Notes: generated by a model not told the origin, from the sequence alone. A stretch of DNA of 63,347 nucleotides, filler included, from Octopus bimaculoides (GCF_001194135.2; 5 parts of 5 records of this genome joined end to end with filler, not necessarily neighbours in it), one strand, 5' to 3'. Positions 8,490-55,780 are shown, counted from the first letter of the whole stretch. Made by a program: numbers and translations.

Positions 8490-8780
8490 GAATTTATGTA
8501 CATTATTTACATTATTTACATTCGACGGATATTTGTCCTCATCTTTCGGCTGATATTTGTCCTCAACGTTTCGGCTGATATACCCTCCAGCCTTCTTCAG
8601 GTATCTTGGGGAAATTTCGAACCTGTGTTCCCATTTCTAAGTTATTATTATTATTATTATTATTATTGTTGTTGTTGTTGTTGCTGTTGTTGTTGTTGTT
8701 GTTGTTGTTGTTGTTGTTGTTGTTGTTGTTGTTGTTGTTCAGGTCCCTGCTTGGAATGGAACTCGGAATCTTGGGGTTAA
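8490..8780 (-). mobile_element. Solo PLE terminal repeat: 3' half of tRNA-like head, (AAC/AAT)n, hammerhead, tail
   Basis: Segments match 51700-51745, 52976-53122 and 54514-54650; the tail carries a 24-25 nt tandem duplication (cagccgaaa...gaggacaaatat). Confidence 0.8.
8562..8605 (-). ncRNA. Minimal hammerhead motif (stem I 3' strand disrupted)
   Basis: GAUAC CUGAAGA A GGCUG GAGGGUAUAU CAGCC GAAAC GUU; intact core and 5-bp stem II, but the following GAGG does not pair with stem I. Confidence 0.7.
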
Positions 8781-9384
8781 TTTGCAAAGAGGTGGTTTCA
8801 GGTTCAGTCCCATCCGCGATACATTCGGAAAATGTCTTTTACTGTAGCATCAGGCAGAGCAATGCCTTCTGAGTAAATCTGATAAATGGAATCTAGCTAT
8901 GTAAACGGAAACGTGGTCAAATGAACAAGCGGAAGAGGTCAATACAGTGGCGACACCTGACTCTATCCGATGTAAAAAAACAAACAAAAAATGTTTATCC
9001 GATCTATGTAATGATATCTATGATAGTAAATTGTCACTGTATATTAATATCAAAAGTACATCAGAGTCTAAAAGTTTCGGATGCTAAATGGTCATGATGT
9101 GAGCGAAGATTCTGAAAATGACAAGGTATTTTAAATACAATTTTAAATAACTCAGTTGGTATTTTCTCAATTATCTAAGGTCCTTAATCGGTTAAGATTT
9201 TGCATGCATCTTCATTTGTATGCGCATGCCTAGAATAGATTGCGGTTTCTGTTATGTTGCGAATGTAATGTTACTAGAAGTAACTGTATTGCTTGACATA
9301 TGTAGCAACTTTGAATGATTACATTTCTATTCAAACACCCACACACACACACGCATAGATGTAAGTATATATTATATTATAAGC

Positions 9385-9525
9385 GAGAATTTACAAAACA
9401 AAAAATTCAAAAGACGAAGACGGGTGTGTAAACAACAAACAGATGTATTAGTTTAATGCTCGGGAAGTGAAAATGTCTTTTACGTTTCGAGCCTACGCTC
9501 TTCGACAGAAAGGAACACAGAAATA
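9385..9525 (-). mobile_element. PLE-like tail fragment with variant minimal hammerhead (9477-9512)
   Basis: CUUU CUGUCGA A GAGC GUAG GCUC GAAAC GUA AAAG; second copy at 25055-25175. Confidence 0.7.
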
Positions 9526-12159
9526 ATTAAGCACTTTAGATTACATCATACCTTCTTTTTTCTTCTTTGTTTGAGGAAAACTAGAAGTCGCCTGTGTGAA
9601 TATTTTAGTTTCATCGCGTTACCGATTTTTATCTAAGAAAAAAGCACTTAAATGTGACGATAGAGTTTGGCACCGATATCTCATATATACTGGTGTCAGA
9701 GTGAAAGAGCCGGCTGTCAAAGTGCCAAGGTATCACAAGGAGTCTTACCCACCCAAGGAGTAGTTCCACAAATCTACGTCCATGTGCTGGTAATTTGTAT
9801 TTCTTCTACAAATCGAAGAAGAGCAAAACTGATCTTGACGGAATATGAAATAACAACTCGGTGAGAGAAATCCTATACAATGTTTGAATGACTCAGCCAA
9901 ATTGTTGTCTACTCTCATCTCAAAAATCTATACGCGTTTCGGAAACGCTGAATACGATTTCGCAGTAAGTGTGCAATATGCTTTCTGATCCATGTCAAAA
10001 TTTCTCCAATGTAGATTCTTTCTTAACCAGTGTTATTATAGTAATTTCCAAGTACGTAGTTATTATTATTTATTATTTTTTTAGCTTCTCGCAGTTATTT
10101 ATGTTATAGAAACCATATATCTGAAGTTAAATATTACCTAATGATACAATACGTTGGCAAATATAATACGAAAGCTAACGAGAGTAGCATATCCCCGATA
10201 GGCCTGGCAACATTAAAACCGATTATTATAAATATCTATTTACCTTACACTTAAAGGAAATGCTAATTTTACTGCTGACTTTGGAGAAAGTAGCAGACAA
10301 AAACGGGATCGTAATATATAGCAATGCACATAAAGGAGTCAAAAACCCTTATCATGAGACACGATTTCACATACGAGTTCATAGACTTTGTTGCTTCTGG
10401 GATTATTACAGAAGTAGATGATGAATATTAACTTAAAATTTATTGAGTTTTCATTGAATATTGGTGATGTTTTTTCGTAGCATTTCAACGGAAACCTCCA
10501 TTAGTTTGCCTGTTCTTCCTTAGGCAATGAGCAATTTCTCTTACGTACATTAAATAAATCCGTTCCGATTTCAGTAATTGTCATTATCCAATATTATATG
10601 ATCATAGAGTATTTTGCCTTCATTGCATATATATACATATACATATACATATATACACACACACACACACATATATATATATATATATATATATATATAT
10701 ATATATANNNNNNNNNNNNNNNNNNNNNNNNNNNNNNNNNNNNNNNNNNNNNNNNNNNNNNNNNNNNNNNNNNNNNNNNNNNNNNNNNNNNNNNNNNNNN
10801 NNNNNNNNNNNNNNNNNNNNNNNNNNNNNNNNNNNNNNNNNNNNNNNNNNNNNNNNNNNNNNNNNNNNNNNNNNNNNNNNNNNNNNNNNNNNNNNNNNNN
10901 NNNNNNNNNNNNNNNNNNNNNNNNNNNNNNNNNNNNNNNNNNNNNNNNNNNNNNNNNNNNNNNNNNNNNNNNNNNNNNNNNNNNNNNNNNNNNNNNNNNN
11001 NNNNNNNNNNNNNNNNNNNNNNNNNNNNNNNNNNNNNNNNNNNNNNNNNNNNNNNNNNNNNNNNNNNNNNNNNNNNNNNNNNNNNNNNNNNNNNNNNNNN
11101 NNNNNNNNNNNNNNNNNNNNNNNNNNNNNNNNNNNNNNNNNNNNNNNNNNNNNNNNNNNNNNNNNNNNNNNNNNNNNNNNNNNNNNNNNNNNNNNNNNNN
11201 NNNNNNNNNNNNNNNNNNNNNNNNNNNNNNNNNNNNNNNNNNNNNNNNNNNNNNNNNNNNNNNNNNNNNNNNNNNNNNNNNNNNNNNNNNNNNNNNNNNN
11301 NNNNNNNNNNNNNNNNNNNNNNNNNNNNNNNNNNNNNNNNNNNNNNNNNNNNNNNNNNNNNNNNNNNNNNNNNNNNNNNNNNNNNNNNNNNNNNNNNNNN
11401 NNNNNNNNNNNNNNNNNNNNNNNNNNNNNNNNNNNNNNNNNNNNNNNNNNNNNNNNNATATATATATATATATATATATATAAGTAGGTATACAGCCACA
11501 TGCATATATACCTATATGTAAATATATATATGTGTGTGTGTGTATGTGTGTGTATACGCATACACCTTATATACTTATTTATGAAGAACAGGGTTCGTTG
11601 AACACCAATGAAAGGAGCCTTAGAAAGTCTGAGACAGGGAGAACAATGGGGGCAAGAGGAAAGAACAGAGGGAGAGACAGTGATGGTTTAGAGACAAAAT
11701 ATAAAAATAGAATACAAACATATTCAGTAAGGATCTATGTGTGTGATATAGAGAATCATAATCTCCCTATAATTACAACTGGGCGGTATTTTTCCTATGC
11801 TTAGACGTCTGAGAGAAAGATCAGACACACAAGAAGGCGACGCATCGGACATCTTGAAATACACACAGTGACGAGCGAGAGACAGGAAAGATGGCGGCGA
11901 ATAGCTGCTTTTTACTGTGTCCCTCTCTCTCTCCCTCTCTCCTTTTTCTCCGTCTCTTCTGCTGGGGCTAAGATGCTGACCACACACGCATTCACATTTA
12001 TAGAGAGTTACAAACACATGTATACAGAACCAATATTGCTAACGCCGTTGATGACGATAGTTATAAGTTTTCTTCGCAACTATCTTCTTGTTCCCTTCCC
12101 GCCTTTTATATAGATCTTTTTCCTTCCCGTAGGATACATTCAGTAAGACTCGTATTTAA

Positions 12160-53974: not shown

Positions 53975-54328
53975 GACTCGGTGGAATTTGAACATAGAAC
54001 GTAAAGACAAACGAAATGCCGCGAAGCATTTCGCCCGGCGTGCTAACGATTCTGACAGCTCGCCGCCCAACAACAGCAACAATAATAATAAGAACAACAA
54101 CAACAATGATAAAATAATAAAGGTTTCAAATTTTGCCAAAAGAGTAGCAATTTTTGGCGGGAGGGAATGATTCGATTACATCGGTCCCAGTGTTCAACTG
54201 TTACTTATTTTATCGACGCCGAAGGATGAAAGGCAAAGTCGACCTCGACGGAATTTGAACTCAGAACATAGCGACGGGCGAAATACCTCTAAACATTTCG
54301 CCCAGCGCACTAACGATTCTGCCAGCTT
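53975..54328 (-). mobile_element. Two tandem SINE family A copies (53975-54067 head only; 54122-54328 full)
   Basis: gcattt[c]gcccggcgtgctaacgattctg and gtcgacctcgacggaatttgaactcag. Confidence 0.85.
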
Positions 54329-54513
54329 GATGATGATGATGATGATGATGATTCTTTTAATAATATATTTAATTCGGTCATCATTCTAAACGTGTAAGTA
54401 CTGTCAATTAAATNNNNNNNNNNNNNNNNNNNNNNNNNNNNNNNNNNNNNNNNNNNNTTAATTAATTAANNNNNNNNNNNNNNNNNNNNNNNNNNNNNNN
54501 NNNNNNNNNNNNN

Positions 54514-55780
54514 TGGGGAAATTTCTAACCTGGGTTCTCATTCCTAAGGTATTTTTCGATGGTGCTGTTCTTGTTATTATTATTATTTTTTTTTTATTAT
54601 TCAGGTCACTGCCTGGAATCGAACTCGGAATCTTGGGGTTAGTAGCCCGTGCTTTTAACCACAACGCCCTATGTCCGGGGGCAATTATGGAGTGGATTTT
54701 AGGGCTTATAAATCTAAACTTTTCCTATCCTTCCTTAATACCGCTTCCCATATGCTATTCATATCTGCACTCGGTCTGCTTAGGAGATTGTTGTGTCCTA
54801 GCATATGTGCTGCTTCTTTTAGTTTTCCTATTTTCCAGTGGTGTTCGCTGCCTATTATTTTAACTTCATCCCATCGGGTGAGGTGGCCTCCATGTTTCAT
54901 ACATGATCAGCTATACCTGATTTATTAATATCTCCTCGTGTCACGGGTTTTCAATGTTCGTCTACCCGTATTTTGAAGGGGCGGCATGTTTAGACTTTGT
55001 ATAACCTACCACAGCTGCATGGGATGGAGTACATGCAGTTTTTGATCATATTCTCTTCTATTGGTGGTTTTACTCGAAGGTGGATATTTGCGAAGTGTTG
55101 TATTACTCTTCAATACTGTCCTGATGTCATATGGGCCGCATATCTGTTGTATCTTTTCGCAGAGGCCTTTCACACAGGATAGACAGACTGTGGACACTTC
55201 ACTGGTTTCTTCCTCTCTTTTCTTCATATTTGGGTAGATAGTATGTTTTTGGGGTAGTTGTTGCTTAATAGATTGTTACTGAACTTGATCAATTCTTCGT
55301 GGTGTGTATCACGATGACCACTTATATTCTTTCCTCGACGGTTTAGGCACTGAGCAATGCCCCTTTCTTTACACTGTATGTATGGTGGTAATTGAAGTTG
55401 TGGTATTGTCCAGTCAAGGTCGGCTTGCAGTATACGGGTGTCCTGAATCCATAATTGATGCTTGTTATTAATTCGTCCAGGAATGCCAGCTGATAGTATT
55501 TTTCCTTTTTTCATTGTGAACTGTATGGATGGCTTTATTGAGTTTACATGATCTAACAGCACTTGAACATCTTCCTGGCCAGAGTATAAAGGTGTCATCA
55601 ACATATCGCAGACATAGGGTTGGTTTTTGTGGTGTTGATACTAAATCCAAATTCTCAATGTTTTCTATGTATATATTGGTTATTATCGGTGATAATGGCG
55701 AACCCATAGCTAAACCCTTTTACTGTCGATATATGTCAGTATCCATACTGAAGTAGGTAGTTTCTACACAGAAGATCAAC
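54514..55780 (-). mobile_element. Second Penelope-like copy (5'-truncated RT, GIY-YIG, tRNA-like head, (AAT)n, start of hammerhead flank)
   Basis: GLAMGSPLSP; LRYVDDTFILW; homology to 49818-50660 and 51430-51745; A-box gggcgttgtgg and B-box gttcgattcc at 54602-54675. Confidence 0.9.

What the first reader, a model, noticed from the sequence alone, without database searches (positions are those of the whole stretch)
8490..54680. PLE terminal repeat is a composite: tRNA-like Pol III head, (AAT)n, hammerhead, T-run
Seen in three copies (8490-8780-, 51680-53122+, 54514-54680-): downstream of the GIY-YIG stop in the two coding copies lies a tRNA-like segment (A-box gggcgttgtgg, B-box gttcgattcc), then (AAT/AAC)n, a conserved 50-nt spacer with no T4, and the hammerhead. 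In the 53024 copy TTTT follows stem I directly. The 8490 copy has no adjacent coding sequence and only the 3' half of the head. Inference: a captured SINE head could give the repeat its own Pol III transcript, trimmed by self-cleavage, making a SINE/retrozyme hybrid.
Basis: partly seen in the sequence, partly recalled or inferred. Interest (0 to 1): 0.7.

Follow-up and report, generated by a model that had tools for sequence, protein, structure and literature searches.

The report
tRNA-headed SINE on Penelope tail
Two worn Penelope-like retrotransposon copies and one stump end in the same unit, a tRNA-derived SINE head joined to a minimal hammerhead tail, and because this unit is far more abundant on its own in public reads of the same organism it is likely a SINE copied by Penelope enzymes, a pairing in print only for blood flukes.

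Summary
The composite is real. In all three copies the order is tRNA-like head, A/AAT/AAC-rich run, conserved spacer, then (where not lost in a gap) a minimal Penelope-type hammerhead and a ~55-nt tail. Two copies follow the stop codon of a decayed RT plus GIY-YIG Penelope-like ORF by about 30 nt. The third is a 5'-truncated stump.

Three parts of the finding do not hold:
- The T-run is private to one copy.
- Only one window copy keeps an intact ribozyme core.
- No upstream copy is seen, so "terminal repeat" is not shown.

Public runs of the same organism change the picture. The head and the hammerhead tail are each about 4-7 times deeper than the ORF tail. More than 100 contigs per run break exactly at the head's 5' end into unrelated flanks. 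Most copies carry a perfect A box and a canonical CUGAUGA core.

My reading is an abundant tRNA-derived SINE whose 3' module is that of a canonical Penelope-like element and which is likely copied by its enzymes. The autonomous lineage carries the whole SINE as its 3' UTR. Trimming by self-cleavage is not supported, because copies end about 55 nt past the cut site and RNA reads show no ends there.

This scan has already noted the SINE on other DNA. The link to the ORF is what this window adds. The schistosome Sm-alpha element is the precedent in print.

The parts
54709..55779 (-). c3: decayed Penelope-like ORF (RT with YVDD, then GIY-YIG-type endonuclease), broken by stops and frameshifts
   Evidence: Translation. 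RVT_1 E 1.2e-5 on 55471-55719. tblastn of P0005 aa 178-537. blastp to P0005 E 4e-20 (RT) and 4e-11 (IPCSCG endonuclease core).
54706..54708 (-). c3: ORF stop codon (TAA), followed by a ~30-nt linker shared with c2
54604..54676 (-). c3: tRNA-derived head, 73 nt. Mutated A box at 54669-54659; B box GTTCGATTCC at 54624-54615.
   Evidence: (Rfam tRNA, full model 1-71, 10.9 bits). Family majority letters table 3.
54514..54603 (-). c3: A/AAT-rich run, then the conserved spacer, cut off by the assembly gap at 54513
51430..51647 (+). c2 direct arm: last ~70 codons of the endonuclease, and the stop codon
   Evidence: 86% to c3; P0005 aa 471-537.
49818..51429 (-). c2 inverted arm: the rest of the same ORF (P0005 aa 14-474, including the ADKG motif near 51150) on the opposite strand. 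It overlaps the direct arm by 18 nt of element sequence.
51677..51741 (+). c2: tRNA-derived head with a 9-nt deletion in the A-box region; B box at 51720-51729
51744..51848 (+). c2: (AAT)n, probably lengthened by the (ATT)n tail of the nested element
51849..52905 (.). Foreign ~1.06-kb segment (with N gap 51930-52714) nested in c2's (AAT)n; not part of the unit
   Evidence: 51849-51927 is 96% identical to 56691-56769 on the other strand.
52906..53023 (+). c2: (AAT)n and the conserved spacer
53024..53069 (+). c2: minimal hammerhead remnant. Helix I 5' strand GACAC, core CUCAUGA (G5 changed to C), extra A, helix II, GAAACGUA, helix I 3' strand. Predicted cut after 53064.
53070..53123 (+). c2: tail, ending in GTAAATAAT-like units; homology to c1 ends at 53123
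8742..8779 (-). c1: 3' half of the head only (B box with 2 mismatches). This is the 5' truncation point.
8641..8741 (-). c1: (AAC)n then (AAT)n
8606..8640 (-). c1: conserved spacer
8565..8605 (-). c1: minimal hammerhead with intact core. GAUAC, CUGAAGA, extra A, helix II GGCUGG/UCAGCC, GAAACGUU. Predicted cut after 8565.
   Evidence: helix II in the minimum-energy and centroid folds; only descriptor hit in the window; 0 in 200 random sequences.
8545..8564 (-). c1: private replacement of the family's helix I 3' strand, so c1 cannot form helix I
   Evidence: loose ends at 8545 (427 contigs in X1) and 8564 (232 contigs). Most copies read like c2 here.
8491..8544 (-). c1: tail with GGACAAATATCCGTC and two or three GTAAATAAT-like units. 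Family 3' ends fall at 8494-8502.
   Evidence: table 7.

Best explanation
The three copies are ends of one retroelement family. Its last 200-330 nt form a complete tRNA-derived SINE unit: a head with A and B boxes, an A/AAT-rich run, a spacer, a minimal Penelope-type hammerhead and a tail. That unit is likely transcribed on its own by RNA polymerase III from the head and copied in trans by the reverse transcriptase and endonuclease of the Penelope-like element that carries the same unit as its 3' UTR.

Shown:
- The anatomy of the unit.
- The physical link of the unit to a Penelope-like ORF in two copies and in more than 100 other contigs.
- The much greater abundance of head and tail than of ORF sequence.
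- A discrete 5' boundary at the head in many copies.

Inferred:
- Pol III transcription.
- Recognition of the shared 3' module by the Penelope enzymes.
- The origin of the unit: a simple tRNA-plus-(AAT)n retroposon that landed just after the stop codon of a master element and then read through into its tail.

The hammerhead is probably inherited baggage of the Penelope tail, or part of what the enzyme recognises. It is probably not a trimming device for the SINE RNA. c1 is a 5'-truncated insertion.
For: Coding part is a canonical EN+ Penelope-like element:
- RVT_1 hit.
- 216 homologues of the ORF tail at E<=1e-3. The two longest true homologues (P0005, P0115) have an N-terminal RVT_1 domain and match our piece at their C-terminus.
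- The IPCSCG, EH and AEH endonuclease motifs and the ADKG motif are read directly. tblastn maps aa 14-537 of P0005 onto c2.

Head:
- B box is intact in 2 of 3 copies.
- Rfam tRNA is the only family of 4227 to match the 106-nt slice, end to end (10.9 bits, E 9.4 for all families).
- Majority letters in the runs restore TGGCGTAGTGG at head positions 8-18, with the B box at 53-62 (table 3).

Hammerhead: all four non-descriptor marks of metazoan PLE min-HHRs listed in PMC4209133 are present. Most copies have CUGAUGA and a GACAC/GUGUU helix I (8596 T>A at 2.69M of 3.98M; 8603 A>G at 3.59M of 3.76M).

Abundance in run X1 (single-copy flank depth 51.7):
- Head 3' half: 4.0M.
- Hammerhead: 4.2-4.8M.
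- Tail: up to 7.1M.
- ORF tail: 0.6-1.1M.
- Run X2 behaves alike.

5' boundary: loose ends pile at 54662 and 54673 (X1 56+88 contigs, X2 59+80). They read on into low-agreement AT-rich flanks, not into the ORF linker.

ORF linkage is a family trait: 111-127 X1 contigs carry the majority letters across 54663-54695.

Head-to-spacer joins with 0 or 3 AAT units occur in other copies (table 5c).

Penelope-type footprints:
- c2's inverted 5' arm.
- Opposite-strand joints at 8533/8592.
- A head-to-head palindromic junction in reads.
Against: - No transcript start at the head and no strand bias in the one raw RNA run. RNA depth simply follows DNA depth for head, tail and ORF tail (about 3-4e-4), which looks like passive read-through.
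- Summed word depth is not a copy number, by the tool's own warning.
- The microsatellite was skipped in both lays. The link between most heads and most hammerhead tails therefore rests on 3 window copies and 2 listed contigs, not on a census.
- The tail motif may be shared with other hammerhead families, which would inflate its depth.
- tRNA similarity is weak: ARAGORN finds none, and neither window head folds as a cloverleaf.
- None of the 3 window copies has an intact A box, and none has a complete hammerhead (c1 lacks helix I, c2 has a changed G5, c3's lies in a gap).
- About two thirds of the listed 3' loose ends run on into a conserved sequence that I cannot place.
Confidence: 0.6

Rival explanations
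1. Chance capture. An unrelated, LINE-dependent tRNA-SINE once inserted into the 3' UTR of a master Penelope-like element. The deep head signal would come from that SINE with its own, different tail. The deep hammerhead signal would come from truncated Penelope copies and other hammerhead repeats. No head-plus-hammerhead SINE would exist as a mobile unit.
For: - The microsatellite between head and spacer was skipped in both lays, so most heads are not shown to be joined to hammerhead tails.
- The A/AAT-rich run after the head looks like the tail of a simple retroposon.
- SINEs make up about 11.6% of one octopus genome (PMC13282606, passages).
- Tail depth exceeds head depth.
Against: - Head and hammerhead depths are alike (4.0M against 4.2-4.8M in X1).
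- All 3 window heads are followed by the spacer.
- Other contigs join head to spacer with 0 or 3 AAT units (table 5c).
- Earlier notes of this scan describe whole head-to-hammerhead units inside target-site duplications on other DNA. I did not test those notes here.
Confidence: 0.18
2. No SINE at all. Every short copy is a 5'-truncated insertion of the coding Penelope-like element, made from Pol II transcripts. The pile of ends at the head would reflect reverse transcriptase stalling or snapping back at the tRNA-like sequence.
For: - c1 is plainly truncated inside the head.
- Depth falls 5'-ward along the ORF.
- A palindromic junction at the head's first bases suggests snap-back copying.
- No RNA starts at the head.
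Against: - The step from ORF tail to head is abrupt, at 4-7 fold.
- It falls exactly at the position where a tRNA-type transcript would start, 7 nt before a perfect A box.
- The window heads do not fold stably.
Confidence: 0.1
3. One reading: a SINE/retrozyme hybrid whose Pol III transcript is trimmed, and perhaps circularised, by hammerhead self-cleavage.
For: - The family core is canonical.
- Animal hammerhead repeats give circular RNAs in other phyla (PMC7229834, abstract and passages).
- Sm-alpha transcripts self-cleave (PMC6765202, passages).
Against: - Copies end 55-70 nt past the cut site.
- There is one ribozyme per unit and no tandem units in the window.
- Single min-HHRs showed no detectable cleavage in vitro (PMC4209133, text read).
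- No read ends pile at 8565 (table 6).
Confidence: 0.08

Closest known systems
Sm-alpha / Sj-alpha SINE-like elements of Schistosoma (Ferbeyre et al. 1998 and Laha et al. 2000, cited in PMC2770079 and PMC6765202; I read passages of those two only, the originals are not held)
   Same: Short, very abundant, non-coding. tRNA-derived head (tRNAscan calls Sm-alpha copies tRNA-Gln-like). Apparently transcribed by Pol III. Carries a hammerhead.
   Different: The schistosome ribozyme is a canonical type I hammerhead with helix III. The units are often tandem, and the promoter sits so that cleaved monomers lose it. Here the ribozyme is the minimal PLE kind, units are dispersed, the head is at the 5' end, and the whole unit is also found as the 3' UTR of a coding Penelope-like element. 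Sequence relatedness was not tested.
Terminal regions (pLTRs) of canonical EN+ Penelope-like elements with min-HHRs (Cervera and de la Pena 2014, PMC4209133, parts 1-2 read; Craig et al. 2021, PMC8557442, passages)
   Same: RT plus C-terminal GIY-YIG ORF. Minimal hammerhead near the 3' end followed by a short tail. Inverted 5' arm. Many 5'-truncated stumps.
   Different: A tRNA-derived Pol III head between the stop codon and the hammerhead is not mentioned in either paper ('tRNA' occurs 0 times in PMC4209133; 'SINE' occurs 0 times in PMC8557442). No upstream repeat is visible here.
Stringent SINE-LINE pairs sharing a 3' tail (e.g. eel UnaSINE1/UnaL2, Kajikawa and Okada 2002; recalled, seen only in a reference list)
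   Same: A tRNA-headed non-coding element ends in the same 3' sequence as a coding retroelement and would borrow its enzymes.
   Different: The partner is a Penelope-like element, not a LINE. The partner holds the whole SINE, head included, not just the shared tail.
Metazoan non-LTR retrozymes (PMC7229834, passages; preprint 10.64898/2026.07.22.740005, abstract and passages)
   Same: Non-coding, hammerhead-bearing, proposed to depend on Penelope-like elements.
   Different: Retrozymes are tandem units cut at each ribozyme into 170-400-nt circles. Neither text mentions a tRNA head or Pol III. Here units are single and end past the cut site.

Membership tests
Minimal hammerhead of metazoan PLEs (PMC4209133) | Catalytic boxes CUGANGA and GAAA | tested here: met
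   c1 has CUGAAGA and GAAA. Most family copies have CUGAUGA (position 8596). c2 fails with CUCAUGA. c3 is lost in a gap.
Minimal hammerhead of metazoan PLEs (PMC4209133) | [quoted passage not shown] | tested here: met
   An extra A, then GGCUGG/UCAGCC (5 Watson-Crick pairs plus 1 G-U) in c1. c2 has GGCUAG/AUCAGCC. Helix II appears in the minimum-energy and centroid folds.
Minimal hammerhead of metazoan PLEs (PMC4209133) | No helix III; palindromic 15.2-16.2 (ACGU) allowing dimers | tested here: met
   GAAACGUU in c1 and GAAACGUA in c2.
Minimal hammerhead of metazoan PLEs (PMC4209133) | Short helix I (4-5 bp) | tested here: inconclusive
   Family majority is GACAC/GUGUU, 5 bp. c1 lost its 3' strand. 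c2 has one mismatch.
Minimal hammerhead of metazoan PLEs (PMC4209133) | Self-cleavage | not testable with these tools
   No pile of read ends at the predicted site in one RNA run (table 6). No Rfam hammerhead match at E<=10.
tRNA-derived SINE | Internal Pol III promoter: A box near +8 and B box near +53 | tested here: met
   Family majority has TGGCGTAGTGG at 8-18 and GTTCGATTCC at 53-62. Window copies are decayed: c3 has 2 mismatches in the A box, c2 a 9-nt deletion, c1 no A box.
tRNA-derived SINE | Similarity to tRNA | tested here: inconclusive
   Rfam tRNA 10.9 bits over model positions 1-71, below the gathering score of 29. ARAGORN finds 0. No cloverleaf fold.
tRNA-derived SINE | Many free-standing copies with a discrete 5' end at the head | tested here: met
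   Loose-end piles at 54662 and 54673 in 4 of 4 runs. Head depth is 4-7 times the ORF tail. No free-standing full copy lies in the window itself (0 of 3).
tRNA-derived SINE | 3' end shared with an autonomous partner | tested here: met
   The same spacer follows the head after both ORFs; the hammerhead and tail are seen downstream of c2 only, since c3's lie in a gap. The stump c1 carries spacer, hammerhead and tail.
tRNA-derived SINE | Pol III transcription; target-site duplications | not tested
   No start pile in cDNA RNA-seq. Target-site duplications were not resolved for c1 or c2.
Canonical EN+ Penelope-like element | [quoted passage not shown] | tested here: met
   Pfam's own GIY-YIG model does not hit the fragments or P0005. 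The endonuclease call rests on motifs read by eye against the description in PMC8557442.
Canonical EN+ Penelope-like element | Direct terminal repeats (pLTRs) flanking the ORF | tested here: not met
   No copy of the module lies upstream of either ORF. c3 is disrupted 5' of 55780, and c2's inverted arm starts inside the ORF. Both copies are truncated, so this says little about intact elements.
Metazoan non-LTR retrozyme | Tandem units, each bounded by hammerhead cut sites | tested here: not met
   Single units only. Ends lie 55-70 nt past the cut site.

The most novel reading that the evidence does not exclude
A Penelope-like element lineage carries a complete Pol III SINE gene as its 3' UTR. 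Every insertion of the coding element that keeps its end therefore plants a new source gene for a SINE that its own enzymes then copy to 10^4-10^5 copies. This would be a SINE born inside its partner, and the first tRNA-headed SINE outside flatworms with an identified Penelope-type partner.
Probability: 0.4. Interest if true: 0.65.

Novelty: new variant of a known kind. Interest (0 to 1): 0.5.

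Why it matters
SINEs are defined as riders on LINE enzymes. A hugely abundant tRNA-headed SINE that ends in a Penelope tail, and whose partner is caught carrying the whole SINE after its stop codon, would:
- extend SINE biology to a third class of reverse transcriptase;
- give a concrete picture of how such a SINE arises, by read-through from a small retroposon lodged in the partner's 3' UTR;
- name a candidate driver for part of the SINE expansion reported for octopus genomes (PMC8967140 and PMC13282606, passages);
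- show that animal hammerhead repeats are not all retrozymes.

This scan has already noted the SINE on other DNA. The ORF-linked form is what this window adds.

Tried and rejected
- Rfam at gathering thresholds on the whole window: 0 matches. Rfam at E<=10 on both regions: no hammerhead and no tRNA; only microsatellite artefacts such as CrcZ and mir-297.
- ARAGORN: 0 genes.
- Whole genome of the window: not held.
- The search for homologous proteins with the RT fragment, longer proteins: none.
- Pfam on the 155-aa frame 50984-51448(-): nothing.
- Exact-pattern scans of metagenome contigs (2 scans) and viral contigs (1 scan) for head and tail: 0 loci.
- The conserved extension that follows the tail in many reads: 0 matches in the window at up to 3 mismatches.
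- Earlier findings by sequence for head and tail: nothing.
- Single-strand folds of heads and hammerheads are no more stable than shuffles, z from -0.69 to +1.77. This is expected for a dimer-type ribozyme and a decayed head, so it was not used as evidence.
- No RNA holder listed by the look-up of sequencing runs.
- Ferbeyre 1998 and Lunse 2016 are not held.
- Literature searches for a Penelope-dependent tRNA SINE found only the schistosome case. Supplements and repeat libraries (Repbase, Dfam) could not be searched and may already list this SINE.
- I rejected a functional tRNA-like 3' structure for the coding element, because the acceptor stem is not complementary and the folds are poor.

Full report
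What is in the window

The window is a gapped eukaryotic scaffold with 21 N runs. Earlier notes of this scan call the genome an octopus; I did not test that. An 18-mer of the proposed head occurs three times and nowhere else, against 0.02 expected by chance. A sensitive blastn finds no further head or tail. The three copies share one order: head, an A/AAT/AAC-rich run of very different length, a conserved spacer of about 45-50 nt without T4, a hammerhead-like motif, and a tail of about 55 nt that ends in GTAAATAAT-like units.
- c3 (minus strand) is cut by assembly gaps just after the spacer.
- c2 (plus strand) is interrupted inside its (AAT)n by about 1.06 kb of foreign DNA with an N gap.
- c1 (minus strand) starts in the middle of the head and has no coding sequence beside it.

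The coding part

c3 upstream of the head translates, through stops and frameshifts, into an RT with YVDD and an endonuclease with the IPCSCG, EH and ADH motifs. One fragment hits RVT_1 at E 1.2e-5. The intact 80-aa C-terminal frame of c2 finds 216 proteins at E<=1e-3 among 1.84 billion. Of 8 hits scanned against Pfam, the two longest true homologues (P0005 of 545 aa, P0115 of 500 aa) have an N-terminal RVT_1 domain and match our piece at their C-terminus. A third long hit, P0093, is an unrelated FG-GAP protein matched over only 20 residues. c3 fragments align to P0005 at E 4e-20 (RT) and 4e-11 (endonuclease core). tblastn of P0005 maps aa 14-474 to 51117-49822 on the minus strand and aa 471-537 to 51432-51629 on the plus strand. 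The ADKG motif that PMC8557442 names as diagnostic is read at about 51150. This is therefore a canonical Penelope-like element with a C-terminal endonuclease. Pfam's GIY-YIG model does not fire on it. Both copies place the head about 30 nt after the stop codon, through the same linker.

The head

ARAGORN finds no tRNA. On a 106-nt slice, the Rfam tRNA model is the only one of 4227 families to match, end to end, at 10.9 bits. Its E-value of 9.4 counts all families; for the single family named beforehand this is about 0.002. The B box GTTCGATTCC is intact in c2 and c3. The A box is mutated in c3, partly deleted in c2 and absent from c1. Neither window head folds as a cloverleaf. The window copies are thus worn. 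The family is not: majority letters in public runs at 54654, 54663, 54669, 54674 and 54678 restore TGGCGTAGTGG at head positions 8-18, with the B box at 53-62, which are the tRNA positions (table 3).

The hammerhead

Rfam finds none. The motif fits the minimal, helix III-less hammerhead that Cervera and de la Pena described for metazoan Penelope-like elements (PMC4209133, parts 1 and 2 read):
- CUGANGA and GAAA boxes;
- a G10.1-C11.1 pair on a long helix II;
- a palindromic ACGU in place of helix III.
A descriptor of the core boxes and helix II hits the window once (c1) and none of 200 random sequences. c2 carries C at the conserved G5. c1 has lost the 3' strand of helix I to a private 20-nt replacement. 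Most family copies read CUGAUGA and pair GACAC with GUGUU (positions 8596 and 8603, loose ends at 8545 and 8564).

Family-level evidence

One index search found 20 runs that hold part of the stretch. I laid two DNA contig runs, one presumed RNA contig run and one raw RNA run on c3 and on c1, at 80% likeness.

Depths in X1, where the single-copy flank reads 51.7:

| Region | Summed word depth |
|---|---|
| Head 3' half | 4.0M |
| Hammerhead | 4.2-4.8M |
| Tail | up to 7.1M |
| ORF tail | 0.6-1.1M |

X2 gives the same ratios. The tool warns that summed word depth is not a copy number, so I read this only as head and tail being several-fold more abundant than ORF, on the order of 10^4-10^5 copies.

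Loose ends pile at 54662 and 54673 in all four runs (X1 56+88 contigs, X2 59+80). They read through the first bases of the head into low-agreement AT-rich sequence, not into the ORF linker, so many copies begin exactly at the head. At the same time 111-127 X1 contigs carry the majority letters across the linker and the start of the head. The ORF-plus-head join is therefore also a family trait, not a peculiarity of this locus. Other contigs join head to spacer with 0 or 3 AAT units (table 5c).

The microsatellite was skipped by the tool in both lays. That most heads are joined to hammerhead tails is therefore inferred from equal depth, three window copies and these few contigs.

RNA

In the raw RNA run both strands are covered equally. 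The RNA-to-DNA depth ratio is the same for head, tail and ORF tail (about 3-4e-4). No place shows a pile of molecule starts or ends, neither at the head nor at the predicted cut after 8565 (tables 6). This looks like passive read-through transcription of many loci. It neither shows nor excludes Pol III RNAs, which such libraries capture poorly.

How it most likely works

The unit is a tRNA-derived SINE whose 3' half is the terminal module of a Penelope-like element. It is likely transcribed from its own A/B-box promoter, runs to a T-run in the flank, and is copied by the Penelope reverse transcriptase and endonuclease through the shared tail. The A/AAT-rich run after the head looks like the tail of a simpler retroposon. 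A plausible origin is one insertion of such a retroposon just after the stop codon of a master element, followed by read-through into the element's end. Since then the coding lineage has carried the whole SINE as its 3' UTR.

Penelope-type footprints fit this reading. c2 has its 5' 1.6 kb inverted with an 18-nt overlap at the junction. Reads show opposite-strand joints within the tail and a palindromic head-to-head junction. PMC8557442 describes inverted 5' copies as typical of the class.

The ribozyme does not trim the SINE. c1 and c2 end 55-70 nt past the cut site, and family 3' ends fall at 8494-8502.

Comparison with what is known, and novelty

A tRNA-derived, apparently Pol III-driven, hammerhead-bearing SINE-like element is known in schistosomes as Sm-alpha and Sj-alpha (passages of PMC2770079 and PMC6765202). 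Non-autonomous hammerhead repeats have been proposed to depend on Penelope-like elements (PMC7229834; preprint 10.64898/2026.07.22.740005). In the texts I could search, no paper describes a tRNA head on a Penelope tail outside flatworms, or a Penelope-like element that carries a whole SINE after its ORF (searches; term counts). Repeat libraries and supplements were not searchable.

This scan has already described the octopus SINE with a Penelope tail on other DNA (e1-9549991, e1-9581514, e1-9558746, e1-9538922; e1-9512477). What this window adds is the ORF-linked form and the depth comparison. I class it as a new variant of a known kind.

Limits

- Only three worn copies lie in the window.
- No upstream repeat is seen.
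- Copy numbers are rough.
- The head-to-tail link for the bulk of copies is indirect.
- About two thirds of the listed 3' loose ends continue into a conserved sequence that I could not place (0 matches in the window).

Noticed in passing
49818-51663: c2 is one nearly full-length Penelope-like ORF split by an inversion. aa 14-474 of the homologue P0005 map to the minus strand (51117-49822) and aa 471-537 to the plus strand (51432-51629), with an 18-nt overlap of element sequence at the breakpoint. This is the layout that twin priming gives in L1 insertions (recalled), and a variant of the inverted 5' copies described for PLEs.
   Followed up: partly
51849-51927; 56691-57001; 57270-57402; 57725-57971: Another repeat family ends in ...CCCAGAGACC followed by (ATT)n on its own strand. 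It is nested in the (AAT)n of c2 and inside the RT region of c3 (96% identity between 51849-51927 and 56691-56769). It looks like a retroposon with a microsatellite tail that lands in matching microsatellites.
   Followed up: no
8494-8502 (family copies in public runs, not in the window): In X1, 143+112 of the 378 contigs in the three listed 3' loose-end rows, and 388+951 raw RNA reads, continue past the GTAAATAAT-like tail into one conserved sequence starting TCCTCATCTC. It is absent from this window. It may be the 5' region of the coding element (which would make the unit a true pLTR) or a longer subfamily.
   Followed up: partly
54662-54673 (public runs): Many reads and contigs show the first 8-15 bases of the head preceded by their own reverse complement (a palindrome centred on CCCATGGG). 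This suggests head-to-head double insertions or snap-back copying at the RNA 5' end.
   Followed up: no
8545-8564: c1's private replacement begins exactly at the predicted ribozyme cut site. It is stitched from two nearby pieces of the element (GAGGACAAATAT and CAGCCGAAA), as if the polymerase had switched template there.
   Followed up: no
8515-8544 and 53090-53105: The tail motif GGACAAATATCCGTC has the highest depth of the whole unit (7.1M in X1), above the hammerhead itself. It may be shared with other hammerhead repeat families of this genome, and could be the signal the enzyme reads.
   Followed up: no
54414-54513, 45848-45947, 60368-60467, 23806-23905: Four places show paired 44-N gaps around a 12-nt island (ttaattaattaa at 54458-54469). 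This looks like a scaffolding artefact. One of them removes c3's hammerhead.
   Followed up: no
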